A stretch of 58,860 nucleotides of DNA, counting the filler, from Sphacelaria rigidula (taxonomy: Eukaryota), in the NCBI GenBank assembly GCA_964200075.2. It is 8 parts of 8 records of this genome, joined end to end, with 100 filler letters (N's around TTAATTAATTAA, not from the genome) between each part and the next. Parts side by side here need not be neighbours in the genome. Positions count along the whole stretch, not along the records: positions 1 to 7,271 come from CAXNAA020015687.1; positions 7,372 to 14,642 come from CAXNAA020015688.1; positions 14,743 to 22,012 come from CAXNAA020015689.1; positions 22,113 to 29,382 come from CAXNAA020015690.1; positions 29,483 to 36,752 come from CAXNAA020015691.1; positions 36,853 to 44,122 come from CAXNAA020015692.1; positions 44,223 to 51,491 come from CAXNAA020015693.1; positions 51,592 to 58,860 come from CAXNAA020015694.1. The stretch is one strand, 5' to 3'. The notes beneath the pieces were generated by a model. It was not told where the DNA came from, searched no databases, and saw only the letters and a program-made list of their open reading frames with translations. Shown here piece by piece: positions 4,380 to 55,058 of the stretch. A program made the position numbers and the translations under genes. Positions within the stretch are counted from its first letter, which is position 1. Every line of letters starts with the position of its first letter.

Positions 4380-4446
4380 CGTACCCATTTGTTGCTTGCC
4401 TTAGTCGTTTGGCCATTGACCACGCATCCCCCACGAGACGGAGCAC
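4380..4446 (-). mobile_element. 67-bp 5'-truncated 3' end of the oligo(C)-ended LINE (family B)
   Basis: GTACCCATTTGTTGCTTGCCTTAGTCGTTTGGCCATTGACCACGCATCC...GAGACGGAGCAC matches the copies at 13293, 21035 and 31912. CTGGTGGG plus a G-run lies on both sides, resembling a TSD. Confidence 0.8.
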
Positions 4447-4871
4447 TGGTGGGGGCGGGAGGGGGGATTGTGCAAAGAAGGGAGAAAGATGAAGCGCGAG
4501 TTTCAAGAATCCCACAATTTCCCGACGAAGGTAGGGAGTAGCTGCAACACACTTTATCGGCTTCGACAGGGTCTCAGCAGCAGTACCTGACCTCGATAAA
4601 TACGCCAATGTACGTAGACGCATGATTTCCTGGGTCGCAAAGGTTTCAGTGACAAGGAGTTGGGAAATAATGTTAGACAAAGGAAATGGCTCATGTCATT
4701 AACTAACTTGCATGTTCTGTATCTTGTGTGCTGCTGGCTGGATATTTATTCGGGCTTGGTCGGCAGCATACGGAACAGCATACGAAGCCCTTTTGAGCCG
4801 TTCTTTTTGGTGATGAGGTGCTACGTTTTACATTTTGCGCTGCGTCGCATCGGGGGCGGGGGGCGGGGGGG

Positions 4872-4970
4872 GTACTCATGATCTTGCATGCCATAGTCAT
4901 CTGGCCACTGACCTCGCATCCCTACAAAGCGGGGACGGAGCACACCGGAATTTCGCCGGATCAGTCAGGC
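4872..4970 (-). mobile_element. Truncated family A (SINE-like) copy between G-runs
   Basis: GTACTCATGATCTTGCATGCCATAGTCAT...GGACGGAGCAC matches copies at 43715 and 54433. G-runs at about 4852-4872 and 4972-4987. Confidence 0.8.
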
Positions 4971-7271
4971 AGGGGGGGGGGGGGGGGTGTGTGGAGGGGG
5001 GTCGCGCTGTGGCGACCGTTTGTATGTGAGACCCTTCGGTTGACGCGGAATCGATCTAGCTAGGGAAATAAGTATGCACACGGAATCATAGTGTGTGTCT
5101 CGTGTCGTGATTACTGTATACCATCGTTCAACGTTTACTTTGTTGTGAATATGCTATGCCGCAGAACGAGCTATTTGTGGTGTGTTGATGTGTTCGTCAG
5201 CAGAGGGTAGAAATTCAGGAAAAGCTGAACGTGAAAAAACGCTCACTCCGTGTTCCTGCAGCGGCGGTCGGTCGAGGGCAATCTCTTTTTTATTCATTTT
5301 TATAGTTGCATTGTTCGACGGGAAACCTAGGCGCCGGCTCTGACCCACCTTTGGGGATTGCCTGCTTTGATTTTTACGCATCACCCTTGCGGTTATTTAT
5401 CGTTTTTTCAGATGAACGTTCGATACACCACCCTGCGCAACAGTTGTAGACCGTGTTGCGCGCAGCAGTGGTATGGTGAGGATCTCACAACTGGTGATGG
5501 AAGAGATCCTTGAGTCGGGAAAAATCCCAGGGTCGACAGACAAGTACCTGGAATTTTCTGCCCAAGAAGGCCCGCGATGTTAAGGCAAAAAGTACAAGGG
5601 AAAAAGCGAAGGACACGGTGTTGAATTTTGAAGACACCGGATACCAGTACAACGGGGAACTATACGGTATGATGAAGGGGGCGGTACGGTGTGGTGTACT
5701 TCCGCATGGAGGGGCAGACAGGGCGCGATGTGGTTGCCGGGAGGTCGAGTACGGTAAATGAGGAATGAGAGCTCTCACTAACATATCGGTAAGCCAGTGC
5801 CGTGCTCGCGCTTTTGTGGAGTGACCCCGGGGTGGTAGACCCTCTTCTCGCCGCATTTGCTTCAAAATATAGCGCGTGATCATTCTTACTTGCGAGGGAT
5901 TAGAGGGACACAAATGCGCGATCGACAACAATCATTTTTGGGTGGTGAGTAACGTACGACGGAAGACAGGCGGTAGAATATTGTAAGCAATAATGCAAGA
6001 GGTACGGCTAGCTATAGTCCTCGCGAGAAGCCTATTGCTGTGGTAGTTGTGGAAGTCTTTGGTTGTGATCGTGGTTGCTGTGGTTGTTGTTGTTATTGTT
6101 GTTGTTTATAATTGTAATGTACAAACCGTCACGCTACAGCATCGGAAATGTGCGTGCGTGGGGGAAAAAGCATCGTGAAAAAGCAACACAGTGCGTTGTA
6201 CATCTACATTGCCAAGATTTAGAGGCGCACGGTGCTGGATAAGGCCTCGCCAGTCTGGTGGGGTTCTGGGGAGCTGTTACGTTTGTTTGGTGGGCGGGTT
6301 TTTATGTCTCCAATACGGTCCCGAGGTGGTCTGTTTTGAATTTTGTACACAAGAAGTGCTCATGTAGAGTGGGAAGTGTCTCGCTCCGGTGCAGCGGCAA
6401 TACGAAAGGACGGTGGGGTAGGGAGGGGGAGGGGAAGAGGGGACTACGGTGCGGTGGTACGAAAACAGAGGACTGAGCACAACTCTTTCCCGACACTGCA
6501 AGCAAATCCATTTTTTAGGTGTGGTTACTTACCGCTGGTCGGTGCTACTAGGATTTGTAAAATTTATCACGAGAGGCGAAGGTGAGGGGCGCAGAGCGAG
6601 GGAGAAGAGAAATGCATGACGGTCGTCATGCACTGTACATAAATACAAACTTGATAAGCATAGTAAGCAACGACTGTATTAAACGGGTGGCTCGTCATCG
6701 CTTGGTGGGTGTGGTAACAAGATCCTAGGTAGCGGACTCAAAATGGGTATGCTCTGCCTGAACGGTACCGTTTTCTTTTCACACACGGTGCTCCGAATGA
6801 GTTAGTTATCTCTTTTTAGACCTATCTCAAGGCAAGCAACCCCGAAGATCGAGATGCTTTGTTTGGGCTAGGGTTTGCCCTAACCCTAAGCAGCACCATG
6901 ACTTGCGTGATTTGTGATGCAAGTTTATATGCGAAACACCACTTCGGTTATTTTGACTGCGCCATGATTACTGCTGACGTCAGTTCCCATTCAGTTCTAA
7001 CTGGGTCCAAGCGAAAAATGTACGCTCAGTACGGTCAGCCAAGGCCTACAGTTTGGTGCGGTTGCTGCTTCATCGCGAGCAGTAGAGGTCGTACGGCGTA
7101 GGTGATAATGCTGTGCGCTCCCTTGCTTCATCTCCCTAGCGGCTCGACTTGGGTCACAACAACACTGCCATGGTGTCACGGATGTCCCCGCACGCCTGCT
7201 CGACCACTTCTGCTCCCACAACTGTGGGGGGGGGGGGGGGGTCTCGGCTTTTTCCTTTCTTTTACAATTCT

Positions 7272-7371
7272 NNNNNNNNNNNNNNNNNNNNNNNNNNNNN
7301 NNNNNNNNNNNNNNNTTAATTAATTAANNNNNNNNNNNNNNNNNNNNNNNNNNNNNNNNNNNNNNNNNNNN
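7272..7371. other. Artificial contig spacer N44-TTAATTAATTAA-N44
   Basis: The same 100-bp spacer occurs seven times and has stops in all six frames. Confidence 0.99.
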
Positions 7372-7446
7372 TTGTAGGGCGGCCCACCCCTTCCACCCAA
7401 GTTGAAATCTAGTTTCCAAAGAAGCAAGAATTCCCCCCCCCCCCCC

Positions 7447-7487
7447 TCAATGGTCTTATGACTATGGCATGCATGATCATGAGTACA
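7447..7487 (+). mobile_element. 41-bp family A 3' end embedded in a C-run
   Basis: TCAATGGTCTTATGACTATGGCATGCATGATCATGAGTACA, with C-runs at 7433-7446 and 7489-7496. Confidence 0.75.
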
Positions 7488-7511
7488 GCCCCCCCCGCCT
7501 CCCCGGGGGGA

Positions 7512-7683
7512 GGACGGGGATAAGATATTTAAAAGGTTTTTGTGTAATGTATGGAAGAGACGTAATGAGCTCCGGAATGTTGGAGGTGGCTCTATTAGGA
7601 GTAGGAACGAACGGTGCTCCGTCTCGAAAGAGATACGTGATCAATGGTCGAGCGACTAAGGCAAGCAACAAATTAGTACAACC
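7512..7683 (+). mobile_element. Family B LINE 3' fragment
   Basis: Reverse-complement match to about 13293-13460. Encodes ...NGAPSRKRYVINGRATKASNK. Confidence 0.75.
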
Positions 7684-7999
7684 GTGGTAAGGTGAATGCC
7701 CTCAATTTTGAAATGGTACAAGACCTGCGGGATATTTTTCATNNNNNNNNNCGTTTTGAAATATCTACTTGTTCTACTGTCGAGCCAAAAAAGCAATTAA
7801 CAAATTTGTCCCCCCCCCCCCCCCCCTCCCCCCCCCCCCCCCCCCCCATAAAAATTTCGAGTGGATGTCACTTTCTACTTCTGTTCTTTTCTTGGCTGCT
7901 TCCGCTTCTTTTTCCGTGTATTGGTGATATAAATATAGTGTCAAAATTTCAACTCCCAACCCGTTGGACTTTTCCCCGGCCTCGGTTCGAGCACTGAGG

Positions 8000-12094: not shown

Positions 12095-12410
12095 CGCATT
12101 TTTTTTTGTCGCACTTCGAACCCCTTCCCTTCCTCGGGACGAGTCCGTGGTCTCAACGGATCATCCCATCTCTCCCCCGGTACATGTCGTGCATTTTGGT
12201 CTCGCGGAGTGGGTCATGACTATCAGCACTCCCGCACCGCGTCAACTCACGTCAAACAAACTCAGTCGACCACCTCGTTTACTCGCGTTCTCGCGCTTTC
12301 CACGGTGGAAATCAGATATCACGAAGAAAAACCCAACGCACCGGGAATCGAATCCTCGTTCTCTCCACCCCAATGGCGTCAGTCGGACCATTTACACCAC
12401 CGGGGCGCGG
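12095..12410 (-). mobile_element. tRNA-derived SINE
   Basis: Minus-strand head GCCCCGGTGGTGTAAATGG (A box)...GGATTCGATTCCC (B box), and a body motif GAGACCACGGACTCGTCCCGAGG shared with other copies. Confidence 0.8.
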
Positions 12411-12703: not shown

Positions 12704-12800
12704 ACCAGGGGAGAAATTGGTGGATCCGTTGAGACGACGGACTCGTCCCGAGGATGGGGTGGGGTGGGGGGGCGTGGAAGTGTGTAAAAAAAAGAATACA
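12704..12800 (+). mobile_element. tRNA-SINE body fragment, inverted relative to 12095-12410
   Basis: GATCCGTTGAGACGACGGACTCGTCCCGAGGA matches the SINE body. Confidence 0.65.
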
Positions 12801-13292
12801 GTAGGTGATTGAACCACGATGCAAGTAGGCCGGTTCCAGTGGTTTGCGATGGTTCATGGTGTAATTCTTTTTAAATCGTCCGGCCCACTGAACCCTTACA
12901 CTGATAAATTGGTTGGTTGGTTGATTGTTGCACGTCCAATAATGGTGTTTGTGATGGTGATAGTGATAGTGGTGGACGAGTGGGGGGGGGGGTGTCGATC
13001 CCCTGGAACTGTACTCATGTAGACTCGTATCGCGGAAGGGAATAGTAAATAAATCAAAATGCCGTATCTGCTGTTAACAGGGAAACACACTTCTTGATCA
13101 CATTTGTTAGCGTGGGGGACGCCATGTCTGTACAAAATATTGGTCCTAACACGGGACATGTCGTGACGTGGTAGTATCGTAAACCCTGCATGAATTTATT
13201 ATTACTGATAATGATGGGCCACGAAAAAGAACACCTTATTTTTTCCTCCGGGAGTCCGAGAACGTCGTTGACTCGAAAAAGTCGTGGGGGGG

Positions 13293-13930
13293 CGTACTCA
13301 TTTGTCGCTTGCCTTAGTCGTTTGACCATTGACCACGCATCCCTTCCGAGACGTAGCACCGTTCCTACTCCTCATAGAGATACGCCTCCAACATTTCGGT
13401 GCTCAATGCGTTTCTCCCATACATTACACAAATCCTTTTACATATCTTATCCCCGTCCCGCCTCAACGCCTGCGGCCACGTTTATCTCTCGTAGTATAGC
13501 CATCGTTTTCCTACTGCCTAATGCATTAAACGATTTCATGCCACCTTCGTTTGCTTCACCGCATTTCCCCTCAAGCATGTCCCGCTCCTCCTTGTATAGC
13601 TCACATTCTGCCACTATATGAGTTCCGCTCTCTATTGCTTTGCTGCAGGGGCAATTCTATGCATCTACCTCCTACTCCTCTCGACTACTGGTACATTTCT
13701 CTTTATTCTTTGTGGCACGCCCAAGTCCCCCACCCGGAATCGCAGCGGGAAGCAAATCTTGGAAAGGAAACGCAGTAAGACTGCTCTGCTAAACTCTCTC
13801 GTCGAAAGGGTCCAGTGCGCATCAAAGCTTGTCTTTCGGAGCCTGGGATGCCGCGATTGTCCTTCACCTCCGGACTATGCAGTACCTTCCTTACCCCTTG
13901 CTCTACTCCCTCCGGCGCAGCCACCTTGTA
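13293..13930 (-). mobile_element. Family B LINE 3' portion including the C-terminal CCHC zinc knuckle
   Basis: The minus strand encodes NCPCSKAIESGTHIVAECELYKEER and ends GCVVNGQTTKASDK* followed by GTACG and a C-run (G-run 13286-13292 on +). Confidence 0.85.
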
Positions 13931-14074: not shown

Positions 14075-14570
14075 CAGGGTGATACATATCTCAAGGGTAG
14101 GTCGAGTAGAGTATACTCAATACTCAGTATTTTTGAAGAGTCATGCTTTTAGTACTCGAAGTTTGAGTAGGATATTCGAGGTCGTGCTCAACCTACTCAA
14201 TTATTCGAGTAGAGTATTTGAGATCATACTCAGCCTACTCGAAATTTGAGTAGAGTATTGAGGTCATACTCAAGTGATACTCTAAACTCAAGTATTACTG
14301 AGAGTGCTTACTCAAACTCTGAGTAGAGTATTCGAGGCCGTACTCAACGTACTCGGAATTCGAGAAGAGTATTTGTGGCCATACCCTACGTATTCAGAAT
14401 TTGAGTAGAGTATTGAGGTCACACTCGAGTGACACTCTATACTCAAGTATTACTGAGAGTGCTTACTCAATATTTGAGTAGAGTATTTGAGGTCGTACTC
14501 GACCTACTCAAATTTTGAGTAGAGTATCGGAGGCCGTACTCGACCTACTCCAAATTTGAGTAGAGTATTG
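14075..14570. repeat. Array of ~40-bp self-complementary units (GAGTAGAGTATT..GAGG..TACTC..CCTACTC), probably hAT-type subterminal repeats
   Basis: Starts CAGGGTGATACA. About ten degenerate units with a higher-order duplication (about 14245-14330 vs 14400-14490). Confidence 0.75.
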
Positions 14571-19231: not shown

Positions 19232-19389
19232 CATCAACTTTGTGCTTTTTTTCCGGCACACTTACAACTCTTCCCCTTTCTCGAGATGAACCCGCGGTCT
19301 CAATAGATCAATTTAATCATTCCCCTGGTATATGCCTTGCAATATGGTACCCTTTGTTGCTACTCATGCTCTCACGTGTTTAACGATAC

Positions 19390-21034: not shown

Positions 21035-21918
21035 TCATTCGTTACTTGCCTTAGTCGTTTGACCGTCGACCACGCATCCCTTGCGAGACGGAGCACCGTT
21101 TCTACTTTTCATAGAGAAGCCTTCAACATTTCGGCGCTCATTGCGTTCCTTCCATACATTACACCAAAACCTTCTACATATCTAATCCCCTTCCTGATTC
21201 GTCGTTTGTGGCCACCATCTATCCCCCAGTTTAGCGGACGTTTTCTCGCTACTGACTGTTGCATCAAGGGATTTGATGCCACCTCCGTATACTTTCCACA
21301 TTTCCCCTCCTAAACGTCCCGTTCCTCCTTGTATAGTTCACATTATGCCATTAGATGACTTCTACTCTCTGTTTCGCCACAGGGGCAATTCGGTGCATGT
21401 ACTTCCTCCTCGACTCGAGTGCTCGTATACATTATTCTACTTTCTGGTAGGTCCAGGTCTCCCACCCGATATCGCGGTTTCATCTTTTTCGCGGAGTCCA
21501 TCGCGCGATGCAGATATGTTTTCATCCTTATCCCCTCCATCAACCCCCCGTATATCGTCAGGTATTCTTCCTCGTCTACTTTATGTCTTAGCGTTTTTCT
21601 TTCCCGTATTTTCATCTTGTACCCGCCACATTCACCTATGGATATTATCTCGTCTTTGTTTCCTTCCATGCCCTTCCATACTTTCTCGACCACGCTATCC
21701 CACCTCATTCCAGCCTACTTCCGCCACTTGCCTCCATCACGGCCCTATCAACTATGCCTGGCAACCTCTTTCTTGTCATACTCCTTACGCTGTGTTGCCA
21801 TTTCAGATTTTTCGTGTCTCTATTTATTTCAAGTGGGTACAATCCCACCTCTGCTCTCACTGCTGTATTACTCGCCGTTTTTAAACATCCATGTATTTTC
21901 TCAGCTACTGTCATCTAC
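21035..21918 (-). mobile_element. Family B LINE, longest copy (RT thumb to 3' end, RTEX-like)
   Basis: GCLKTASNTAVRAEVGLYPL...KRLPGIV, RYRVGDLDLP and NCPCGETESRSHL. The 5' truncation point abuts a 21-nt G-run (21919-21939). Confidence 0.85.
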
Positions 21919-22012
21919 GGGGGGGGGGGGGGGGGGGGGCCGGTTGATGCCTTAGCTGCTTGATGTACTCGTGGCCACACCGCCCCCGCGCCCCCCCTTC
22001 GTGCAGTTCATC

Positions 22013-22112: not shown

Positions 22113-22162
22113 CCCTACAAAGCCGGGACGGAGCACGCCGGGTTCTCGCCGGACCAGGCTAA
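22113..22162 (-). mobile_element. Family A fragment at the contig start, followed by a G-run
   Basis: CCCTACAAAGCCGGGACGGAGCACGCCGGG, with a G-run at about 22167-22182. Confidence 0.75.
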
Positions 22163-22325
22163 GTTTTGGGGGGGGGGGGGGGTTATCGCGGCATCCCTCC
22201 TCGCCCAACCAATGTGAATGGCTCGGGCATCGACGGTGTAGCGAGCAACCGTGCGTTTGCAAACTGTTAATACCATGCCAAAACCATGATTGTGGGTGTA
22301 AACCCCAGTGAAATCGTACAGACTT

Positions 22326-22712
22326 CTAGACAAGCGAGTGAGCTGGCGCTTTCGTTTCTAGCAGACGTTCACGAACACACTGGTGGTGTTTACTTTTCGC
22401 TTTCAAATACCTTATGCGCCTGGAGTATACACGCCTCGCTTTCCTCCCCCTGAAGTATGACTGCAACTTGACTGCTGCCCACTGGCGCGTAGTTTGAATT
22501 TCCTCGTATTTTTTTCTCGCCGCGAACCCACGCCAAGACGTCTGTACTACCACGGCTGCTGGGTCGAATTTCGGTGGATACTGAGCTCGTTCAATCACCA
22601 TCGTCTCTGGTGCTTTTTCTGATTCGCGTTGTTGCTTTTCCGCTTGATCAACAAGCTCTGTGGTATCATCACCATCTCCACCGCCAGAGTGGAATTGATC
22701 CATCGCGGAGAC
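22326..22712 (-). CDS. Exon 7 of the LRR-IQ-Sfi1-like gene, containing two IQ motifs
   Basis: Acceptor GTACAG|GTC, phase 0. Motifs AAVVVQTSWRGFAARK and AAVKLQSYFRGRKARR. The 3' boundary is uncertain (a donor may lie near 22393). Confidence 0.75.
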   Translation of the reverse strand, partial: VSAMDQFHSGGGDGDDTTELVDQAEKQQRESEKAPETMVIERAQYPPKFDPAAVVVQTSWRGFAARKKYEEIQTTRQWAAVKLQSYFRGRKARRVYSRRIRYLKAKSKHHQCVRERLLETKAPAHSLV

Positions 22713-35684: not shown

Positions 35685-35935
35685 AAACGCTCCATTTCCT
35701 AGTGTATTCTAGCGATTTGTCTATCTGTTTCTGCGATCCTTCTGGTGTTCCTGAGATCCCCACAAAACCATCTGTGAACATCAATCCGGACACATTATCT
35801 TTATCCACCTTAGCTCCTTATTCCTTCTATTGCTCATATGAGGGCCATTGATCAATACCTGGAATAATGTGGGTGATAACGTGCATCCTTGTGCAACTCC
35901 TTGTCAAATTCCAATTTCATAAAGTGAATTTGATG
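35685..35935 (-). mobile_element. Degenerate non-LTR reverse transcriptase fragment (domains 4-5)
   Basis: The minus strand reads GVAQGCTLSPTLF...VSGLMFTDGFVGISGTPEGSQKQIDKSLEY across frameshifts, with a decayed FADD motif. Confidence 0.75.
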
Positions 35936-36501: not shown

Positions 36502-36752
36502 GGGGCGGCGGCGAAAAATTCCGCTGTATATGTGCTTCGTCGACCTCCAGAAGGCATATGACTCGGTCGACCGAGAGCCTCTGTGGCAGGTACTGGCCCG
36601 AACTGGTATTCCGGATGAGATGATAGCAGTTATCCGCCAATTCCACGACGGTATGCAGGCCCGCGTACGCATGGACGACGGGGAGCTCTCGGAGTGGTTT
36701 GAAGTCACACAGGGACTGCGACAAGGATGTGTACTGTCTCCCCTGCTGTTCA
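36502..36752 (+). mobile_element. RTE-clade reverse transcriptase fragment cut by the contig end
   Basis: PLYMCFVDLQKAYDSVDREPLWQVL...WFEVTQGLRQGCVLSPLLF, uninterrupted. Confidence 0.92.
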
Positions 36753-36852: not shown

Positions 36853-37580
36853 CCCCCCCCCCCCTATCGTAGGATGACTACTCCGTGGTGTGCTCCCACG
36901 TGAAGATATATACCTTTCTCTGGCAGGCGCGTGATCACCCTTGTGCAGAGTTTCCACTTGGCTACTTTTTGTCAGACAGTGTGGGTACGAGCCAGGCCGG
37001 CCTCGAAAGTGAAATTCCATTCGCCACACATACCCTAAGAACCGCGGCACTTTGCAGAGTGAACGTACTATTTTGATCGGTATATGGCCACGCGTGTGGT
37101 TCGACTACTGTTAGTTTACTTCATGGTGTTGATACAGTGGGAAACGTGTTGCCCTAAAATATACCATAACCCTAACCCTAACCCATGTGTTAAATTGGAG
37201 GCCGTTTTTGCAATCGCTGCTGCTCGTCTTGTTGATGTACCCCTCTTGTTGCGATATTTTGTGCTAAAATTTCAACGTGGTTATATCTCATGTGCGGAAA
37301 TCATGTTGATGATAATAAATTTCGGCAACGAAGCGGAGAATTGGACTGCGGTTTGTTGCGTGCGTTTTCCACACACCCAATCTAGGTTGTGTCTTCATGC
37401 GATTGCGTTCGCGCGTGATACTAAGCCGCACCAGACTAAAAAGTACATGAGACGTTTATTTAATTTTTGGGGCTCTTCGGTTTTGTTTGATTATTCCTCC
37501 GCGTTTTCTTTGATCATTCTCGGAGAAGGTTTGTGGAGTCTTGAGGGCCCCCCTTCACACCCACAACGGTCTCGAGTACA

Positions 37581-38489: not shown

Positions 38490-38697
38490 CACTGCTCTTT
38501 TTTTTTACAATACACCCCTTCCCTTCCTAAAGACGAGTCCGTCGTGTTCAGGGATTGACCCATCTTTCCCTCATGTCCTCACCGTTTCGACGGTGTAATC
38601 ATATTTCTGGAAGGACATGAAGTGCGTCTCGTGGGAATCGAACCCACATTCTCTTTACCCTCACGGTGGTAGTCTGACCATTGCACCACCGGGGCAC
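38490..38697 (-). mobile_element. tRNA-SINE (diverged)
   Basis: GACGAGTCCGT...GGGAATCGAACCC...CCATTGCACCACCGGGGC. Confidence 0.7.
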
Positions 38698-41306: not shown

Positions 41307-41839
41307 GGCAACGATCAACGTGCGGAGGATGTAACTCCGCAGCTTTTTGAGAAGAGTAGTATCTGAGTCTTTTTGCAATCATCGTCAATCACCTAACAAC
41401 GGTGAGCTGATCACGTAGATTGAAAGGCACGGGAGCGTGTCGGCGTGTGCGTGTAGGTATACTGATTGATTTGCGTTCACTCCGTTGACGTCTTGTGTGC
41501 GAAGTTTGGTGCACGTATAATACTCTTGCGTACCACGAAGACTGACCCATCGGAAGATATTTTACGTTTTTGTCGGATTAGAATCAACCAAGTCGTGTCT
41601 GGAGGCACAGGCAACCGACCGCAGGAGTGCTTCACACACAGTTTCGATGCGCGTATTCGCTGTCCGCACCGTACCCTTGCTCAGTATGTATTTTTTGTTC
41701 AGTCAGATAACAAATCCCTCTCCTTGTCTCCCTCGGGACGGGTCCGTAGTGTGATTGAATCAAACGATCTCTGCCTGGTACACGCTGTGTATTGTCGCAT
41801 AAATATTTTGGGGTGAAACGAGCAGTAGCTGTAGAAAAT

Positions 41840-43048: not shown

Positions 43049-43714
43049 TAGTGCAATTCAGTGTTGGTCATTTGCTTATAAGGCTGTCAAATAGGAGCAA
43101 GCATAGCCTAGTCTTCGCATCCTTCAGATCCATCGTTTGTTCAGTCGTTCAGTTAGTAGTCATGGGACGGAGGTTGGGTCTATTTTTCCCGTCAGTCTGC
43201 ATGGATTTCAGCATGAAAAAGGGAAGTAAGAGCGGGGTAAAGAACAAATGTAACTTCTTTGTGTGGGTGTGGTGGGGTTTGGGGGTGTTTTCGTTGTTGT
43301 CGTTGTTTGGTTTTCGGCAAAAGGGGAGGACAAGATGATTCCAGATGCACCAGGTGACATGTGTTGGATCTTCATACCGAACGCAGTACTGCCGTTCCTT
43401 GCGCGTCTTGGGGCAAGTTGGCAAGTTGGATACATCGTGTGCCCATCTCGGTAGTGATGTCCGGAGGGTGTGATACTGCCTACGAGCGCGCTGGCTTCAT
43501 TGTTTGCGGGCTGTCGTTTATCCGTGCCACATGGTTGAGCACGTGCGTGAGATGCTGCTCTCCATTAAAGGGCTGTTTTGAAGGCACCATGGAGGTTCCT
43601 TGTGAAACGCAACATTCACGGGTTCAAACCTGAACCCCTTGGACAGCGAGCCTCGCCACGGAACAGTTTGACAGTACGGAGACACTCGGGGGTTTCCTGT
43701 GGGCGGGGGGGGGG

Positions 43715-44009
43715 TGTACTCATGATCATGCATTCCATAGTCATACGACCATTGACCTCGCATCCCTACGAAGCACGGACGGAGCACGCCGGGTTTTCGC
43801 CGGACGAGGCTCGCACTCGAACCACCAAGCGCGAAGCGCCGTGGTGTGTTCCACGAGTCCCATGGAGGGTGAGCTGCGTCCTGCTAAGATCGTTCGACCT
43901 GAGGCCTACTGATTATCTTGCATTTGGGTGATAGCCTACAATGAGTTGTTTTTATTTTGTGGTATCGCCACTTCCAGAGAGCCACGGCTTTTACACTGCC
44001 TCATGGGTG
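43715..44009 (-). mobile_element. Family A element, apparently full length (~295 bp)
   Basis: Colinear with 54493-54784 throughout, and both stop at ...CTGCCTCATGGGTG. G-run at 43705-43714 and G-rich sequence on the other flank. Confidence 0.85.
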
Positions 44010-44122
44010 CGGGGGTGATTTATAGGGGGAGGGGGAGTCTACCCGCAAAGTAGCTGGGGCTCACCAAGTCAACCGTGTGTGATCGCGAGTTCCCCGCGGA
44101 AGATTCCATGCCAGATACGAGG

Positions 44123-44762: not shown

Positions 44763-45085
44763 GTCAGTCAGATCTCAGCGTGACCCCGCATTCCCCGAGG
44801 TAACGGATTACCCCACGATGATCACCTATCGTCTGGCCTACTTCTTGCCTACAGTAGTGAGCGGTCTAACTATTTAGGGGTGTTTTGGGGTTTTCCTCGC
44901 GTACTACTCTTCGATAGAACTCGAAATTGCTAGCGTCGGTAGATTTTGATACAACAAAACAGATCATCTTCGAAACACAGTGCCCAAGTCAGTCTTATTT
45001 GGTGTTATCGGGCAAAACGAGTAAACACCCCGTTCATAAGGAGGGTGTTCTAAACCGTGAAACACGGTTTTTTCGTCCTGTGGCT

Positions 45086-45202
45086 ATTTATAGGCAACCG
45101 ATCAGACTACCGTACAGTCAGCGCTTACTGTACGGTAGTTTGATCGGTTGCCTATAAATCGTCACAAAAGTTAGTCGCTGGTTCGATTTCCGTCGGACGC
45201 AC
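45086..45202 (+). mobile_element. 74-bp palindrome fused to a tRNA-like 3' half (copy 1)
   Basis: ATTTATAGGCAACCGATCAGACTACCGTACAGTCAGC|GCTTACTGTACGGTAGTTTGATCGGTTGCCTATAAAT, followed by ...GTCGCTGGTTCGATTTCC. Confidence 0.75.
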
Positions 45203-45424
45203 TTCCGCTGAAGAAAAAGAGGAAAACCTTACCTTCGGTAAAAAAAAAGAGGGTGATGGGGAAAGCCCAATCCCCGGGTTGACTGCTAGGGATCCCAGTG
45301 CACGCACTTTGGAAATGAGTGGGCGAGACGAGTTACTCAGAATGAATACGTGTGGCAACATTAGGCCGTTACCGTCAGCGCGAACACTTGAACAGCGCTG
45401 GTAAGGGGAGTCACCCTCCTCGGA

Positions 45425-45547
45425 GTGAAAGTGACGGGGATCGAACCCCCACGACCAACGTTTATGACGATTTATAGGCAACCGATTAGACAACCGTACA
45501 GTCAGCGCTGACTGTACGGTAGTCTAATCGGTTGCCTATAAGTCGTA
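45425..45547 (-). mobile_element. Palindrome plus tRNA-like 3' half (copy 2, facing copy 1)
   Basis: Palindrome centred on AGCGCT at 45504-45509. The minus strand continues ...ATCGTCATAAACGTTGGTCGTGGGGGTTCGATCCCC. Confidence 0.75.
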
Positions 45548-46084
45548 ACAAAAAAACAATCTGGGCTGAAACGTGGCAGGACCCCCGATGACCGGCCAGC
45601 TCATAAGTAACTCAATATTGAGTACAGATGATTTTTTCTTCTTGGAATGTGGGACGGATACAGATATCTTGAGATCCCCGATGTGATAAGGGGTGGCGAG
45701 CGAAAAGAGCCCAAGAGAATCGGCAATTACGAAAAAATAAAAATACGCCACGAAATGAACAGTTAGACCGCCCACTACTGTACACGAGAGGAAATCATCG
45801 TCAGACTCAGAATTCCTTCGGCATCAGGGCGACACCTCCAACGACAGTCTCTCCCGTAGGTCTTTGTCTATCCTATCGATATGCCTTCCTCATATATTGT
45901 CGACACCAGAAAAGAACTCAGGCAAGACAGACCGTAGAAATAAAAAACTAGAACGAGAACCGATTGCTCCGACCCCAGAAACACCAGGGATCCTCTAAGG
46001 AATGCTACAGCAGGTGAAACGTATGGATCATGTGCACAATTATTCGAGTCGAGAAATTACAGGGGTCATGTTTTAAGGAAATGC

Positions 46085-46265
46085 GAAATTAGTCCCCTCA
46101 GTGTGCACTATATGTCATCTGGATGGTTAATCAAACAGCGAAACACGAAATCAGCCCCCTCAGTGTGCATTATGTCACCTGAATGGCTAATCAAACATCG
46201 AAACCCGAAATAAGCTCCTCAGCGTGCATTATATGTAACCAGCATGGCTAGTCAAACAGCGAAGC
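46085..46265. repeat. Three tandem copies of a ~60-bp unit
   Basis: CGAAAT.AG.CCCCTCAGTGTGCA.TAT.TGTCA.CTG.ATGG.TAATCAAACAGCGAA repeated three times. Confidence 0.9.
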
Positions 46266-47319
46266 CACATCTATATCAATTCACCTTTCACCGCCATAGC
46301 GCAAAAGGCATGGCGATCAATCAAGCAGAACAATCTCTGGAAACACGTTGACTCCCAACGGCACAAGAGTCATGCTACGATCGGGGTGGGGGGGGGGGTG
46401 GTGGCTTGATTCCACGAAAGAATGGGCTCATAAATGTTTTAGACGACCTGAAACACTCGCGGTGCGCTTGTATTTGGGTAAAAGCGGTGTCACGCACTGT
46501 GGATGAGCGTTATTTATCCGAAGCAAGCGCGTTTAAACAACCGTCAACAGCGAATCCTGAAAAATGAGGCCGACCTCAAAAATGAGGTTCAAGTGGCATA
46601 TTTGTTTTGCAGGGATGACACGAAACAGTAACACAGAGCGAAACCATCTTTCTCCTCAAAACTCTGCAACTATGAATCATCAGTTGTGGCTAAATGATCG
46701 AACCACTGCGGTGTACACGGGTGTCGATGACGATATCACCAAAGAGAGAAGCAACGACAGCGAGGAAGCTCCTCGCCCGTGTCTTTTGTGTGCCCTCGCT
46801 GGGCGATTACCAATCGCTCGAGAGACTGGCATCATGCATATTCCAGACCCGCGGTCGATGATAGCAGAGTTCTTCGCCCAAAATGTCAGAGAAGGCCAGC
46901 ATCTAGACCCTTTTCCCACCCCTACGGTGAAAAACTATGCTCGATTATACTATTTGCTGAAATGCTATGATATTTCTGCTACTTGCTGAAGCATTAGGCT
47001 ATTTATGCTATCAAGGTGGAATTATGCCAGAAATTATGCTGGCATAATAAGTAAAAGCCTAACTGTAGTGACGCTGTACTCTGGTAATTGTATATCTCAG
47101 CAGACTGCTGAATGATGCTGCGTTTGAAAGATGGCTGGCGTCTGCCCCCGCATTGGATCGTTTCGCTGACGGCGGTCATCGCCGGTGCAACAGTATGAAT
47201 GTAATAGGGAGTGGTATGGACAGGACTCCACACACATTCCTTGATAGATCAATGTACTGCGGGCTTGGTAAGGTGCACAAAGTGCAAGGTGTTCGGGAAG
47301 AACAAGCTGCAGATGTGTG

Positions 47320-47378: not shown

Positions 47379-47381
<3 letters not shown>

Positions 47382-48386: not shown

Positions 48387-51300
48387 TCAAGATGTGCATT
48401 CATGTCGTGTGTACGATCGATACTGCTGAAGGCCGCGGCGTGAGCCGTGTGACTTGAAGCGTTGTAGGCACCGAGAATCGCGGGGTGCGGAGGTGCTGGT
48501 CGTGTATAAACTGGGGCGAAGCTTGAGCTGAACGGGCCCAGGGTGGTCGAGGAAACGCACGATGTACGTGTCGGCCGTGATGGCATCGACGGAGTGGATC
48601 TGACCTAGCCACCAGAGGTAATCGCTGCCTTTATACCACAAATAGGCACCTTTATGGAGCGGTTGTTGTTTCGCGCGAATCTTTTCGTCCCATTGTTTGG
48701 TGGGTACGAGTTCGTAACCATCGGCTACAAAACGTAGTCCTTTATCGCGGTGGAGTTTGCGGGCCGCAGCACCGCGTCTCATGTTGCGATATCCCTTGTT
48801 GTCAGCGAGCTGTTGCTGTGGAGATTGTGTCCAATAGAGAAGGATAGTACGACGGTGCAGTTAAAGGTCTGGCTCGCGTTCCCAAGAGGCACGCCGAAGA
48901 CCTTGCCAGTGTGTTTTCTACGTAACAGCATTGTTGCCGCCAGGACTTCGAGTGATTTGGTGGCCGGAAGTGTGGGACACGGCCAAGCGGAGAGGTTGTT
49001 CAGTCACGTCAGCGGTGGTAACGTGGTACGGTGGAGATTTTGTTGAGTAGCTGTTGAGCACGTTTTGAGTGAGACCTGCAGGCAGGTATTGAGGCATGAC
49101 AGTAGTGTCATGCGGGTTCTTGCAAGGCTTGCGACGATGCACAGAGACGCGAGATTTAGCGTCATGTCCGTGGAGGTCACGAGGTAAATCGAGGTAGAGG
49201 AGTTTGTCGCTAGCAGACTTGCCGTCAGGAGACGTCGGTGAGGGTCCGACTATGAGAATTTTGAACGGATCCGTCCAATTGAGGGACAGTTTCGTCTTCA
49301 AGACTGTTGCCTTGGCAGTGCGGCCAGCGCCTTGACGGATGGTGGACAAACTGTTGTAGATCCAGACCCAATCGCCGATTTTCCAAGTAGGGCATTTGTG
49401 CATCAAGTTGTAGAGGGCGATATTGGATCCTTCAAGGCGTGAGGCGTTGATAGCGTGCTGTTTGTGCACCAAAGTGAAAGCCTTGCGCTGACGAGTCCTG
49501 GCGAGGTCGTGGCAGGACATCTGATCCTGTTCCAGACCTTGGTGACCATCGAAGGTATGTCTTTCGAGAACGGTGATGGGCAGGCGAGGGTAGCGTCCAA
49601 GATGCAGCTCGTTGGGCGAAAGACCGGTAGCCGCGTTAGCCGAACTCTTGTAAGACAGCATGACATGCGAAAGATGAAGGTCTCAGTCATTCTGACGGTC
49701 GTTCACGACCATGGATAGCATTTGGGCCATCGTGTGCTTCACACGTTCAGTTCCACCGTTACCGTTAGGGTGGTAGGCGCTCGTGGCAATTTTGCAAATG
49801 CCGAGGAGCTTGTACAAAGCATCCGAGAGTTCGGAGCAAAAGTGTTGACCATTGTCGGAGAGGAGCCGTTTCGGGCAGCCATAGTGCATAATGTAGTCAT
49901 GGACAAGAATGTCTGCTGTGCCGGCAGCATTGAAATCGCTAGCAGTAACAGCGCACATAGCCGCGTGACGGCTGAAGCGATCGGTGAAAAGTAGAATGTA
50001 GGTATTACCATGGTCAGTGTAGAGTGAAGGGCCGAAGTAGTCAAACGATACGAAGTGACCAGGAGCGTTTGGAAGCTCCATGGAAATCACCGGCCATCGT
50101 ACAGTCTGTCGAGAGGTTTTGCGAGCCTGGCATTTGAAACATCGTCGGATCCAAAAACGCGTGAATGCTTCCATGCCGATCCACCAATAAAAGCGTTCGA
50201 AGAGCGCTAACGTGCACGTGACGCCCAAATGGCGGGACAAATCAGAGACCATTGACGCATCATGAGAGGGACATAGATGCGGACAGGGGCATCATGACGC
50301 AGATAGATGGGCGGGAGCGGCAGCTGTTACTGCGGCAGCCGTGCCCAAATGGGAGTTGGGTAGGCGAGCAAGCTCGCGAATATAGTACCTTTGCGTGCCA
50401 GCTCGAGCACTTCAGAGGCGATGAGGGCGGGTAGAGTGCCCACGGGGGTCAGGATCTCAGCCGGGAAAGGGGTGGGGCAGTCAAGCCGTAAGTACCACAT
50501 TGTCGCGCGAAAGAGCAAACCCTATTGTTGGTCGCAAGCCCAATCGCGGTGAGAGTAGCTAGCGAGAAATTCTCGAAGTTGTCCTTCAGCCGGAGAGCCA
50601 ACCAAACATGGTGGCTCAGGGGGGGGTGGCACAGGTGAAGAAGCAGGGGTGCCGACGTCAATATTTTGGTCCGGAAGCGGATCTGACGCATGCGGATCGC
50701 GAGTCACAGACGCAGGTGCGGGGAGATTCCCAGAAGGCTGCGGGGGGGTAGCGCGAACTGGTAAACGTGATCGGCGCGTTGGGTGCGCAAGGGGCGCGGA
50801 CTTTGTCGGTACAACAGTGGGCGCGTGGCCGCTTGTGGTAGGTGGTGTACGGCTCGTGGGGGCACGAGGCGGCGGCGGCGACACATTGCTAGAAGCGGCC
50901 GGCGGCGGCGGCAGTATCACGGCACGCGAACAATTTGCGCGAGCTGCCGACCGAGAACGCGTGTTGTCGGAGATGAGGTAAAGCGTTGGTGGTGGCGGCG
51001 CCGAGATGTTCGCCCGAGAGCCGAAAATGCGGAAGTCGGCAAAGTCAGCAGCTGTGGGCGCTAAGCCATCCAAAACTGCATCAGGGGGCAAAGAGCACCC
51101 CCCCCATGTGTAGACCTGTTTCAGGGCATTGCAGGTCAAGCGCGTAGATGGGCGTAGAAAAACGCCGAGTGGGGTAGATGCCTGGTTCATCAGGTTCGAT
51201 CAAGCGGTAAGCGGGACTAAAATCTACCGCTGTAGGGGGCAGAGGCAATCGCGAAAGAAGGTCGGCATTGCCTTTGGTTTTGCTCGGACGCTGTTTAACA

Positions 51301-51400: not shown

Positions 51401-51491
51401 CCTCTAGTAGCAAATTAGCGGGATAACTAGTTGCGGTTCGGGTAGTTGGATAACGACACAAATCTAACCCGAGATTCCGGGTACAAGTACC

Positions 51492-52946: not shown

Positions 52947-53207
52947 GAGCTATCCTACGATAGGGGGGGGGGTATTTTGGGCCACTTCTTGCACAAAACT
53001 CCAAGTCAAATCATCGTTGAAAGCAGCAACGGATGTTCGAGAGAGCTTGTCAAAGATGGAAAAAAAAAACGCCAATTCATACTGCTTGACACCGTTTTGA
53101 ATCAAATACAAGCGCAACGCGAGTGTGGCAGGTCATCTGACTCACCCATGAACCTCTTTTTTCGTGCAATAAAATACCTTTCCCCTCCCCCTATCGTAGG
53201 ATGACTC
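52947..53207. mobile_element. MITE with 4-bp TSD (TTGA), Kolobok-like
   Basis: TTGA|GAGCTATCCTACGATAGGGG...GGTATTTT and AAAATACC...CCCCTATCGTAGGATGACTC|TTGA. The same right end opens contig 6 (36853-36878). Confidence 0.7.
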
Positions 53208-53721
53208 TTGATAGGAAAAATAAAGGCGTCTTGTAACCCGCGCTCATGCTCGCACACTCCATCATTACGCACATTCGGAAGTTTTTATACTCCCTTGACC
53301 GCGAAGTTAGCATCAGCTGGTTACCATACATATATTATTTGAGGTCGATGGCAACTGTATTTCTAATGGCACTGATGGGGTCGTCAATCGCAGATTTACG
53401 GTTCACGAATCGACCGCCTTCTTCGCACTCGATATTCGGGGACGTACGTAACACCTTAATATCTGTTTTTGTCTCATGTAACTGCTCACCAGGAGTTCGC
53501 CGTATCGGTCACGAACCGGTCGCTTCAGCAGGGACGCCACCAGTTGATCAGAATGCAGAAGGAGGCACGACAAAAGTGACGGGAGGGTTACCCGCTCTCC
53601 CAGTCCCCCTCTTCGCGCCGCCGCTTCGGTCGTACGGCCGTCCATGTACCTTGGTGACGAGCGGGGGTGGTGCGAAGATCGAGGACGAGCGGAATCCAGG
53701 AGACGGGAAACAATGAAGATC

Positions 53722-54420
53722 TGTGATGCCCATTTCGGATATCATATCCTCCATCTAGGATACCATCTCCATCTTGCAATATCGACCGATATCAATCTGA
53801 TTTGTGCACATTCACGTGGGATATCCATGTGGAATGTTCATCTGGGATATCGTCGTTGATGTGGAGTATCCATCTTGGAGTTTGTTCCCCCTGAGGCATG
53901 AAAGATTGATTGTTCTCGTCAACCTCAAGTGAATCTGTGAGTTTGACTCGTTTATTGCTACATCGAAGTCGTATTATTCTGTTTTTTGGTTCGGACATTC
54001 GGCGCGAAACCTTGTGATGGAGGTATAGACAGACAGCCAACACGAGGGTCTATTTTGAGCTGGGTACAGGGTTTTTGTAATAAGAGGACCACCCTTTCCC
54101 GCCTTATGGTTAGGGTTTAAGGATAGGTTTAGGGGTCGGGGTTGGGGTAGGGATGGGAAAATATTCATAGGTAGGTTTCCATCTGGGATATCCCAACTTC
54201 AGATGGACATCCTGTATCGATATCAAACTCCCAGATAAGTATTCCTCAACAGTATCGCAGGCTGATACCCCACATGAGTATCCATATCCCACATAAATAT
54301 CGCATATGAATCTGGCATCCCAGATGGACATTTCAGACGGTTAATCATATCCCAGATGATTGTCGCTATTCCCGATGGAGGTTGCAGGATGATGCAGGGA
54401 TCCCATAAAATATGGGGCAC
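53722..54420. repeat. Repeat element with GATATCC/CATCTGGGA/TCCCAGATG motif arrays and an internal telomere-like tract
   Basis: Recurrent motifs at about 53730-53880 and 54175-54420, with TTAGGG-like sequence at about 54108-54152. Confidence 0.55.
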
Positions 54421-54432
54421 GGGGGGGGGGGG

Positions 54433-54784
54433 TGTACTCATGATCATGCATGCCGTAGTCATAGGACCATTGACCTCGCATGGGGGGCGGGGCACTTATG
54501 ATCTTGCATGCCACGGTCATATGACCATTGACCTAGCATTCCTACAAAGCCGGGACGGAGCACGCCGCATTTTCGTCGAACCAGGCTCACAACAATCGCC
54601 AAGCGCGAAGGGTCGTTATGTGTTCGGCGAGTCGCATGAAGGGTGAGCTGCATCCTGCTCAGATTGTTGGGCCCGAAGCGTACTGATTACGCTGCATGTA
54701 GATGACAGCCTTCAATGAGTTGCTTCATTTTCTGGCATCGTCACTTCCAGAGACAGCCACGGGTTCCACACTGCCTCATGGGTG
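54433..54784 (-). mobile_element. Two tandem family A copies (48-bp stub 54433-54480 and full copy 54493-54784) separated by a G-run
   Basis: G12-TGTACTCATGATCATGCATGCC...GACCTCGCA-TGGGGGGCGGGG-CACTTATGATCTTGCATGCC...CTGCCTCATGGGTG. Confidence 0.85.
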
Positions 54785-55003
54785 TCTCACCATGTAAACA
54801 CTACGTAGTACGATCATCCCCTTTGCGCGGAATCGAGGGCCCCCCCCCCCCGCACAAAAATGATCTAGCTTGACTACCACCATGGTTACCGCAAAAAAAA
54901 AACAAGCGCACATAAAGCAACGGTAATCTGGTTGCCTAGCTTACGCAGTGAGTGGTGTGTTTTACAGCGTCATTGCCAACCGACGCCAACCCATTAGGGG
55001 TTT

Positions 55004-55058
55004 CATCCCTACAAAGCCGGGACGGAGTTCGCCGAGTTTATGCCGGACCAGGCTCGCA
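55004..55058 (-). mobile_element. Family A internal fragment
   Basis: CATCCCTACAAAGCCGGGACGGAG...GCCGGACCAGGCTCGCA. Confidence 0.7.

What the first reader, a model, noticed from the sequence alone, without database searches (positions are those of the whole stretch)
4380..55058. Candidate new system: LINE plus partner element with oligo(C) 3' ends that insert at G/C homopolymer runs
Seen: family B (4380, 7512, 13293, 21035, 31912) encodes an RT thumb and CCHC knuckle, and its ORF stops about 5 nt before the terminal C-run (…TKASDK*GTACG-Cn). Family A (4872, 7447, 22113, 43715, 54433, 54493, 55004) shares the last ~70 nt (on +: GTACTCAT..GC.TGCC.TAGTC.T..GACCATTGACC.CGCATCCCT..GACGGAGCAC) and then diverges. 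About 12 pieces occur in 7 of 8 contigs. No copy has a poly(A) tail, most abut a G/C run at the 3' end, several have runs on both sides, and many are only 40-100 bp. Established: non-LTR elements use target-primed reverse transcription, usually end in poly(A) or short tandem repeats, and SINEs borrow the 3' end of a partner LINE. Inference: the endonuclease nicks poly(G) tracts and primes on an oligo(C) RNA end. That would be an unusual targeting rule and could also generate the many G-runs in this genome. I cannot confirm that it is undescribed.
Basis: partly seen in the sequence, partly recalled or inferred. Interest (0 to 1): 0.8.

Follow-up and report, generated by a model that had tools for sequence, protein, structure and literature searches.

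The report
Algal LINE with poly-C tail
These repeats are worn copies of a jumping gene (a LINE) and its short hitch-hiker in an alga, both ending in a run of C and sitting between C runs; this kind was already catalogued in the brown alga Ectocarpus, though how it picks its landing sites has not been studied.

Summary
Twelve pieces of two repeat families lie in 7 of 8 contig pieces. Family B is the 3' part of a single-ORF LINE (APE endonuclease, RT, CCHC). Its stop codon lies inside the terminal TGAGTAC(G), which is followed by a C-run. Family A is a non-coding partner sharing the last ~60 nt. In 8 of 10 readable 3' ends, at least 10 of the next 14 nt are C (background 0.5%). In 9 of 12 5' ends, a C-run lies just upstream (background 2.4%). 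Contigs of four public runs show the same G-run beside thousands of other copies, so it is not an assembly artefact. Intact relatives elsewhere end the same way (C8, C13). The closest named relatives are from the brown algae Ectocarpus and Sphacelaria. It is not a new kind: the curated Ectocarpus TE library (PMC12477816, supplementary table) lists RTE-X LINEs with "(C)n 3'", "(C)n termini/TSD" and C-rich TSDs, plus non-autonomous RTEX-N elements sharing the 60-bp 3' end. Priming on a G-run by an oligo(C) RNA end is a sound inference, supported by nested insertions into older tails, but it is untested. Verdict: new member of a known kind, modest interest.

The parts
21035..21916 (-). Family B, longest copy: decayed 3' part of the LINE ORF (about residues 1061-1360 of the full protein; thumb, CCHC, C-terminus). 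It is 5'-truncated exactly at the G21 run, and its 3' end is degenerate.
   Evidence: tblastn with P0155/P0163. blastn to L119 4246-5147 at 75.6%. No homology beyond the run.
21919..21939 (-). C21 run (G21 on the + strand) directly upstream of the 5'-truncated B copy
13286..13751 (-). Family B copy (C-terminal ~130-180 codons, CCHC) ending GAGTACG + C7
7511..7679 (+). Family B copy (last ~50 codons). It ends TTAGTAC with no C-run. Its 5' end abuts the tail of A7447.
4369..4446 (-). Family B, 78-nt 3' end, GGGTACG + C7ACCCACC tail, with a C-rich 5' flank
   Evidence: 91% to L119
31899..32044 (-). Family B copy (last ~40 codons), end GTAGTACG + C4GC8
43701..44009 (-). Family A, longest copy (~309 nt, possibly full length starting CACCCATGAGG), end GAGTACA + C10
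   Evidence: No Rfam or tRNA match.
54482..54784 (-). Family A copy (~303 nt, 80% to A43701), tail C4GC6
54421..54481 (-). Family A, 59-nt 5'-truncated copy (95% to A43701) sitting in the tail of A54482, with its own tail A + C12: a nested/tandem insertion
4858..4971 (-). Family A, ~100-nt copy lying between C16 (4972-4987 on +) and its tail C8GC6GC5
7433..7505 (+). C14 run, a 54-nt family A copy (7447-7500) and its tail AGC8GCCTCCCC, placed directly upstream of B7511
22113..22182 (-). Family A internal piece (the contig piece starts inside it) preceded by C15 (22168-22182 on +)
55004..55059 (-). Family A internal piece lacking the 3' terminus
35687..35904 (-). Internal RT fragment of the same LINE lineage (residues ~868-947), with no 3' end
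   Evidence: 73.5% to L119 3680-3901
36518..36751 (+). RT fragment (residues ~809-885) running into the end of the contig piece

Best explanation
Family B consists of 5'-truncated, decayed copies of an autonomous non-LTR retrotransposon. Intact relatives encode one ORF of about 1330-1360 aa with an N-terminal APE-type endonuclease, an RT, a thumb and a CCHC knuckle. There is essentially no 3' UTR: the stop codon lies inside the terminal TGAGTAC(G), followed by a (C)n tail. Family A is its non-autonomous partner, at least ~300 nt long, with a head of unknown origin and the same ~60-nt 3' module plus (C)n tail.

Both belong to the lineage curated in Ectocarpus as RTE-X / RTEX-N. That lineage has '(C)n 3'' ends, C-rich TSDs, a shared 60-bp 3' end and tandem copies.

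Inferred mechanism: target-primed reverse transcription of the 'stringent' type.
1. The ORF protein recognises the shared 3' module of its own RNA or of A's RNA.
2. The endonuclease nicks the bottom strand in or beside a G-run.
3. The freed G-rich 3' end pairs with the oligo(C) at the RNA's 3' end and primes cDNA.
4. Frequent early termination gives 40-900-nt 5'-truncated copies.
5. Second-strand cleavage within the same run leaves C-runs on both sides (a C-rich TSD).
6. Each insertion brings a new C-run that can serve as a later target, so the elements both use and multiply G/C runs.

Shown here: the elements' identity and architecture, the C-tail, the C-run flanks on both sides, nesting in older tails, and very high abundance. 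Inferred: the endonuclease's specificity, the RNA's 3' end, and where the runs come from.
For: Anatomy:
- Searches give the copies, the shared 3' module and the tails.
- ORF pieces of B map colinearly to the C-terminal 40-300 residues of full-length proteins P0155/P0163 (tblastn).
- Those proteins carry Exo_endo_phos (170-414) and RVT_1 (740-989).

Intact relatives:
- L119 is a 5259-nt contig in another assembly. It holds an open 1359-aa ORF ending ...TKASNK*, then GAGTACG + C13.
- L076 (marine metagenome) ends GAGTACG + C8.
- L119's ORF is 55% identical over 963 aa to an Ectocarpus protein, right to the C-terminus.
- phmmer with the window's 123-aa ORF gave 398 hits at E<=1e-3. Of 10 looked up, 5 are Ectocarpus sp. 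proteins and 1 is a tiny contig filed under a bacterium. Sphacelaria rigidula also appears.
- A's last 61-67 nt are 82-84% identical to L119's end. The paper gives '60 bp 3' end 83%' for RTEX-N1.

C-run association:
- 8 of 10 3' ends.
- 9 of 12 5' ends.
- B21035 stops exactly at a C21 run.

Nesting:
- A young 59-nt A copy (95% to A43701) sits in the tail of an older A copy (80%) at 54421-54784.
- A young A copy (93-94%) sits in the C-run upstream of an older B copy at 7433-7679.

Genome-wide:
- Logan contigs of 4 runs from 2 studies were laid on 1-7271. In X1, 31,857 records were laid.
- Summed depth in the two element bins is 0.8-1.4 million, against 25-35 in single-copy bins. The tool warns that this is not a copy number.
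- The listed loose ends just outside the 3' termini (before 4369, 4373 and, in X1, X3 and X4, 4865) have consensus runs of about 13-18 G. Each listed row rests on 28-136 records.

Literature: supplementary file 1 of PMC12477816.
Against: - No RT or endonuclease of the element lies in the window. The architecture is read from relatives that are 45-60% identical in protein to the decayed B21035/B13286 pieces and 62-81% identical over the short C-terminal stubs of the other three copies.
- Placement in the RTE-X clade was not tested by phylogeny. Repbase and the paper's FASTA library could not be read. The link rests on homology to Ectocarpus proteins plus the fact that RTE-X is the only LINE group in that table with (C)n ends.
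- 2 of 10 3' ends lack a C-run and 3 of 12 5' ends have no C-run.
- No empty site was recovered, so it is not shown that the runs pre-existed.
- The predicted hairpin in the shared module is weak: 5 pairs, -2.9 kcal/mol, and one pair with a double change.
- 18 of the 27 G/C runs of 8 or more in the window do not touch an A or B copy.
Confidence: 0.75

Rival explanations
1. Tail only, no targeting. (C)n is just this LINE's simple-repeat tail, like (CAA)n of RTE or (CA)n of CRE in the same table. The endonuclease has no G-run preference. On this view the 5' C-runs arise because copies land near older tails by chance in repeat-rich DNA, or through microhomology at the 5' junction.
For: - Tails of 7-13 C are seen on all well-kept copies, including intact L119 and L076.
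- 3 of 12 5' ends have no C-run.
- No empty site was seen.
- The paper's table lists '(C)n 3'' for RTEX-1 without comment on targets.
Against: - 4 of 12 5' ends abut runs of 14-21 C against a background of 0.135%.
- B21035 is cut exactly at C21.
- There are two nested insertions into existing runs.
- The curators recorded 'C-rich' in the TSD column and '(C)n termini/TSD' for RTEX-2.
Confidence: 0.15
2. Structure-driven, endonuclease-independent entry. Long G-runs form unusual structures or break during replication, and the oligo(C) RNA end anneals to exposed G-rich 3' ends. The enrichment would then reflect DNA fragility rather than nicking specificity.
For: This is compatible with the same flank statistics. 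Several contig pieces end at runs (29369-29382, 36853-36864), which shows at least that the runs are hard to sequence.
Against: - Intact relatives keep a full APE endonuclease domain.
- The very high copy number is more easily reached with an active nuclease.
- Nothing here measures breakage.
Confidence: 0.07
3. Sequencing or assembly artefact. The G-runs would be poly-G noise of two-colour chemistry joined to repeats by the assembler.
For: Some pieces end in runs. Homopolymers are error-prone.
Against: - The same G-run beside the element end appears in contigs of 4 runs from 2 studies.
- It also appears in two unrelated assemblies, L076 and L119.
- It is recorded in a curated library built on a different species' genome.
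- The runs lie in a fixed polarity relative to the element.
Confidence: 0.02

Closest known systems
RTEX-1_Ec32 / RTEX-2_Ec32 (LINE/RTE-X of Ectocarpus; PMC12477816, supplementary file 1, read)
   Same: - Single EN-RT ORF, seen here in relatives L119 and P0155.
- (C)n 3' end.
- C-rich flanks or TSDs.
- Thousands of copies.
- Protein homology of this lineage to Ectocarpus proteins: 55% over 963 aa for L119 against P0173.
   Different: - The host is another alga.
- The copies here are old and 5'-truncated (75-91% nt identity to L119).
- Direct alignment to the Ectocarpus consensus sequences was not possible, because the FASTA supplements are unreadable here.
- The paper's main text does not discuss the C-runs.
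RTEX-N1_Ec32 / RTEX-N2_Ec32 (non-autonomous partners, same table)
   Same: - Short non-coding element whose last ~60 nt match the LINE (about 80-84% here; 83% in the paper).
- Head of unknown origin.
- C-rich TSD.
- 'Can be present in tandem', as at 54421-54784.
   Different: Family A is at least ~309 nt, against 607 and 188 bp. Sequence similarity of the head to RTEX-N1/N2 was not tested.
Stringent-type LINE/SINE pairs with simple-repeat tails, such as eel UnaL2/UnaSINE1 or RTE/Bov-B-derived SINEs (recalled, no call)
   Same: The partner borrows the LINE's 3' module, the tail is a short repeat rather than poly(A), and copies are 5'-truncated.
   Different: The tail here is a C homopolymer, and both flanks are the same homopolymer.
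L1 with poly(A) RNA and a TTTT/AA nick site; microsatellite-targeting LINEs such as Dong, Waldo, Mino and Kibi/Koshi (recalled, no call)
   Same: The logic is the same: the primer strand at the nick is complementary to the RNA tail, and the tails seed new simple repeats that can be hit again.
   Different: The base is different (G:C instead of T:A), the lineage is RTE-X-like rather than L1 or R1, and there is no biochemical evidence here.

Membership tests
RTE-X LINE as curated in Ectocarpus (RTEX-1/2_Ec32) | Single ORF with APE endonuclease followed by RT | tested here: met
   Met in relatives only. L119's ORF is 1359 aa. P0155 and P0163 carry Exo_endo_phos + RVT_1. The window copies hold only the C-terminal 40-300 residues.
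RTE-X LINE as curated in Ectocarpus (RTEX-1/2_Ec32) | (C)n 3' terminus | tested here: met
   8 of 10 window 3' ends; L076 has C8; L119 has C13.
RTE-X LINE as curated in Ectocarpus (RTEX-1/2_Ec32) | C-rich target-site duplication or flanks | tested here: met
   9 of 12 5' ends have a C-run within 24 nt, and 4 of 12 have a run of at least 12 C. Exact TSD limits cannot be read inside homopolymers.
RTE-X LINE as curated in Ectocarpus (RTEX-1/2_Ec32) | RT domain groups with the Repbase RTEX clade | not testable with these tools
   No Repbase references are available. The paper's library FASTA is unreadable and Kapitonov 2009 is not held. The only indirect support is that all named relatives in the RT search are Ectocarpus sp. 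proteins except one low-ranking MAG-labelled row.
RTEX-N type non-autonomous partner | About 60-100 nt of 3' end shared with the autonomous LINE, the rest unrelated | tested here: met
   A against B: 80% over 60 nt. A against L119: 82-84% over 61-67 nt and nothing else.
RTEX-N type non-autonomous partner | No recognisable coding capacity | tested here: met
   Stop-to-stop ORFs overlapping the A copies gave no Pfam family.
SINE in the strict sense | Head derived from tRNA, 5S or 7SL with a Pol III promoter | tested here: not met
   No Rfam match at E<=1 on 43600-44122, and no tRNA anywhere in the window. A diverged head cannot be excluded.
   No copy ends in A-runs. The CCHC alone does not decide. 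The best PDB matches are L1 ORF2p and R2 RT cores at only E~1e-21.
RTE clade proper (Ectocarpus RTE-1/2) | (CAA)n 3' tail | tested here: not met
   The tails are C homopolymers. The table gives (CAA)n for RTE.

The most novel reading that the evidence does not exclude
The endonuclease of this brown-algal RTE-X lineage is truly specific for G/C homopolymer duplexes. Reverse transcription is primed by G:C pairing with an oligo(C) RNA end, and slippage lengthens the run. The element would therefore create its own future targets. This feed-forward loop would be the main source of the roughly 100-fold excess of long G/C runs in these genomes. No main-text description or experiment on this was found: searches turned up only a curators' note in a supplementary table.
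Probability: 0.4. Interest if true: 0.55.

Novelty: new member of a known kind. Interest (0 to 1): 0.3.

Why it matters
If the targeting is real, this would be a natural LINE whose landing sites are set by a G:C homopolymer rather than by A/T. It would be a useful contrast case for how tail-to-primer pairing and nuclease preference co-evolve in target-primed reverse transcription. It would also offer a plausible explanation for the many long G/C runs, and the resulting assembly breaks, in brown-algal genomes. As it stands, the finding mainly extends a catalogued Ectocarpus family pair to another alga. It also documents junction statistics that the published table only summarises as 'C-rich'.

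Tried and rejected
- No whole genome is held for the window, so genome-wide logos could not be made.
- Pfam gave nothing for the B ORF pieces. The first word-indexed protein search with the decayed 123-aa ORF found none.
- The Atlas search gave only unnamed clusters and a weak zf-RVT lead (15% of members).
Only 1 of the 118 (L076) is a true copy by blastn; the rest are chance 16-mers.
- The record behind L076 is not held, so its RT part could not be fetched. The viral-contig scan found no relative.
- A tblastn extension of P0163 across the C21 run suggested that B21035 continues upstream. Protein and nucleotide alignments against L119 showed no more than shuffles give (score 7 against a shuffle mean of 8.6). 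I rejected this.
- Read laying showed a joint 4872->4968 that skips the A copy, in X1, X3 and X5. Only 20 letters lie on the shorter side, inside G-runs, so it is not usable as an empty site.
- The consensus hairpin in the 3' module has too little support to claim.
- Earlier-findings look-ups gave nothing relevant.
- Kapitonov 2009 (the RTEX definition) is not held. The Repbase overview (passages) and the gastropod paper (passages) give no structural definition of RTEX.
- 'poly G' in PMC3956500 concerns L1 EN inhibition (passage). 'poly C tail' + non-LTR gave one unrelated methods paper (listing).

Full report
**What the window is.** The window holds 58,860 bases made of eight pieces of about 7.27 kb joined by N44-TTAATTAATTAA-N44 spacers. 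G+C is about 51%. No whole genome is held for it. Public runs that hold the first piece are labelled only as a coded organism and as 'algae metagenome'.

- The repeat finder and a blastn self-comparison recover five B copies: 4369-4446, 7511-7679, 13286-13751, 21035-21916 and 31899-32044.
- They also recover seven A copies: 4858-4971, 7447-7500, 22113-22160, 43701-44009, 54421-54481, 54482-54784 and 55004-55059.
- That is 12 pieces in 7 of 8 contig pieces.
- Read in the sense of the element, which is the minus strand for all but the two in 7433-7679, well-kept copies end ...AATGAGTAC(G/A). A run of 7-12 C follows, then further C blocks broken by single G, A or T.
- A and B share only the last ~60 nt (80% over 60 nt; alignment).

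**More than chance.**
- In 8 of 10 readable 3' ends, at least 10 of the next 14 nt are C. Background is 0.475% of windows; P about 1e-17. The misses are B at 7679 and the degenerate end at 21035.
- Of 12 5' boundaries, 9 have a run of at least 5 C within 24 nt upstream (background 2.4%). Four have runs of 14-21 C (background 0.135% for runs of 12 or more). The misses are B13286, B31899 and A54482.
- The window holds 18 G/C runs of 10 or more against 0.10 expected from base composition. It holds only 4 A/T runs of that length.
- Nine of the 27 G/C runs of 8 or more touch an A or B copy.

**What B encodes.**
- Its ORF pieces gave no Pfam hit and no hit in the first word-indexed search.
- phmmer over 1.84 billion representatives gave 398 hits at E<=1e-3 and 75 at E<=1e-10. 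Ten of these were looked up: 5 are Ectocarpus sp. proteins, 1 is a 330-nt contig filed under a bacterium and 4 are unnamed. Two of the eight hits scanned against Pfam (both Ectocarpus proteins) carry RVT_1.
- A pattern scan of metagenome contigs gave one true copy among 118 matches (L076). Its ORF end is intact...GCVVNGQMTKASNK*, followed by GAGTACG + C8.
- Searching with that ORF found 19 longer proteins. These include full-length P0155 (1360 aa) and P0163 (1328 aa), and a Sphacelaria rigidula protein.
- P0155 and P0163 have Exo_endo_phos at about 170-414 and RVT_1 at about 740-989. The thumb, a CPCG...H....C knuckle and the same C-terminus follow.
- tblastn places the window's B copies colinearly on residues 1061-1360, or shorter stretches.
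- A contig in another assembly (L119, 5259 nt) carries an open 1359-aa ORF that ends ...TKASNK*, then GAGTACG + C13. This ORF is 55% identical to an Ectocarpus protein over 963 aa, up to the last residues.
- The stop codon lies inside the terminal TGAGTAC. The element therefore has virtually no 3' UTR, and the module shared with A is the end of the ORF itself (L119 5101-5165).
- The closest solved structures are L1 ORF2p and R2 proteins, matched at the RT core only (E about 1e-21).

**What A is.**
- The two long copies align over ~305 nt and both start at CACCCATGAGG.
- ORFs over A have no Pfam family.
- There is no Rfam match at E<=1 on 43600-44122 and no tRNA in the window.
- Only the last 61-67 nt resemble the LINE.
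- A is thus a non-autonomous partner whose head is of unknown origin.

**Abundance and the G-runs are not an artefact.**
- Logan contigs of four runs from two studies were laid on 1-7271.
- Single-copy bins have summed depth 25-35 in X1. The two bins with the elements reach 1.36 million and 0.79 million, and 31,857 records were laid. The tool states that this is no copy number, so I take it only as 'very many'.
- The listed records matching a 3' end and then running off the stretch do so before 4369, 4373 and, in X1, X3 and X4, 4865. Each listed row rests on 28-136 records.
- Their consensus for those loose letters ends in about 13-18 G.
- Together with L076, L119 and the published table below, this rules out a local assembly or poly-G chemistry artefact.

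**Evidence that runs are targets, not only tails.**
- B21035 aligns to L119 down to window position 21916 and stops at the G21 run. The 73 nt beyond it score no better than shuffles.
- At 54421-54784, a 59-nt A copy that is 95% identical to A43701 sits in the C-tail of an A copy that is only 80% identical.
- At 7433-7679, a 54-nt A copy (93-94% identical to other A ends) lies between C14 and its own tail, directly upstream of an older 5'-truncated B copy.
- Both cases look like younger insertions into C-runs left by older ones.
- No empty site was recovered. The only candidate joint has 20 letters on one side, inside G-runs. Pre-existence of runs at virgin sites is therefore inferred, not shown.

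**Comparison with what is known.**
- The Ectocarpus TE paper (PMC12477816) was read as passages. Its supplementary file 1 was searched across all three parts, and part 1 of 3 was read in full.
- The annotation table lists RTEX-1a/1b_Ec32 ('single EN-RT ORF; (C)n 3'', 5.5-5.9 kb) and RTEX-2_Ec32 ('(C)n termini/TSD'), with 'C-rich' in the TSD column.
- It also lists non-autonomous RTEX-N1 (607 bp; '60 bp 3' end 83% RTEX-1/RTEX-2'; 'can be present in tandem'; head unknown) and RTEX-N2 (188 bp).
- In that table the other LINE groups have (CAA)n (RTE) or (CA)n (CRE) ends.
- The main text says RTEX-N1 is the most abundant family and shares its 3' end with RTE-X. It does not mention C-runs or targeting.
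- The Saccharina genome paper (passages) also reports an RTEX-1.
This window adds another host and explicit junction statistics.
- I could not align to the Ectocarpus consensus sequences, because the FASTA supplements are not readable here. I could not place the RT in a tree with Repbase references either. Clade membership therefore rests on protein homology to Ectocarpus and on the shared, otherwise unusual, anatomy.

**Literature on the mechanism.** Full-text searches found no paper that describes a LINE with a poly(C) tail or G/C-run targeting in its text. The only record found is the supplementary note. Supplements of other papers, and bioRxiv supplements, were not searchable.

**Mechanism.** The best reading is stringent-type target-primed reverse transcription.
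- The protein binds the shared 3' module, nicks the bottom strand at a G-run, and primes on the RNA's oligo(C).
- Early stops give the many 40-900-nt copies.
- Cleavage of the other strand within the run gives C-rich duplications.
- Each event leaves a new run.
- The steps from 'nicks at a G-run' onward are inference. The rivals are a tail without targeting, structure-driven entry, and artefact; they are weighed in their own sections.

**Verdict.** This is a new member of a known kind (an RTE-X-type LINE with an RTEX-N-type partner). Interest is modest, with an open and testable question about homopolymer targeting.

Noticed in passing
window 46388-46515, 53064-53206, 52952-52972, 36853-36879: A third repeat has a C-run in its middle. 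A ~130-nt block (...CAAATACAAGCGCA.CGCGAGTGT...) ends in a C-run, and a conserved TATCGTAGGATGACTCTTG follows. The part after the run recurs at four places. It may be another C-run-associated element or a preferred landing site.
   Followed up: partly
window 7752-7847: A C17-T-C20 run is preceded by ...GCAATTAACAAATTTGT. By eye this resembles the B terminus GCAAGCAACAAATGAGT (about 72% over 32 nt). It may be the end of a diverged sister family with a 38-nt tail. A 9-N gap lies just upstream (7743-7751).
   Followed up: no
window 12120-12176, 19267-19323, 38514-38570, 41719-41775, 12766-12810: A dispersed ~57-nt repeat (ACCCCTTCCCTTCCTCGGGACGAGTCCGTGGTCTCAACGG...) occurs here, once directly after a C7 run. 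It is unclassified.
   Followed up: no
window 49686-50291 (-), 56575-57000 (+): LTR-retrotransposon remnants: Integrase_H2C2 + rve, and a retroviral-polymerase SH3-like domain.
   Followed up: no
window 1-31, 2431-2673, 2917-3402: Other very high-copy repeats lie in the first contig piece. Summed contig depth is 1,800 to 430,000 against ~30 for single-copy DNA. There are many joints around 3144-3325.
   Followed up: no
window 14153-14569; 34136-34615; 46078-46263; 45079-45553: Tandem repeats of ~155 nt, ~264 nt and ~60 nt, and a ~100-nt palindromic pair (MITE-like).
   Followed up: no
window 29369-29382, 36853-36864, 7226-7241: Contig pieces end or begin exactly at G/C runs of 12-16, or within 30 nt of one. 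This suggests the assembly breaks at these homopolymers.
   Followed up: no
L119 (whole), L120, proteins P0001 and P0157: Intact or partial copies of this eukaryotic LINE sit in contigs filed under bacterial genomes or MAGs. Examples are a 5259-nt contig holding the full 1359-aa ORF and a 330-nt contig of a Hyphomonas assembly. These are most likely algal DNA carried into bacterial bins.
   Followed up: partly
L119 462-530: Upstream of the LINE ORF lies an inverted stretch resembling the shared 3' module (...TTGCCATTGACC...GAGACGGAGCAC). It may be an older, opposite-strand copy of a related family (by eye).
   Followed up: no
window 26687-29026 (-), 22329-22910 (-): Host-like ORFs: a 780-aa open frame with leucine-rich repeats, and a frame with IQ calmodulin-binding motifs.
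   Followed up: no
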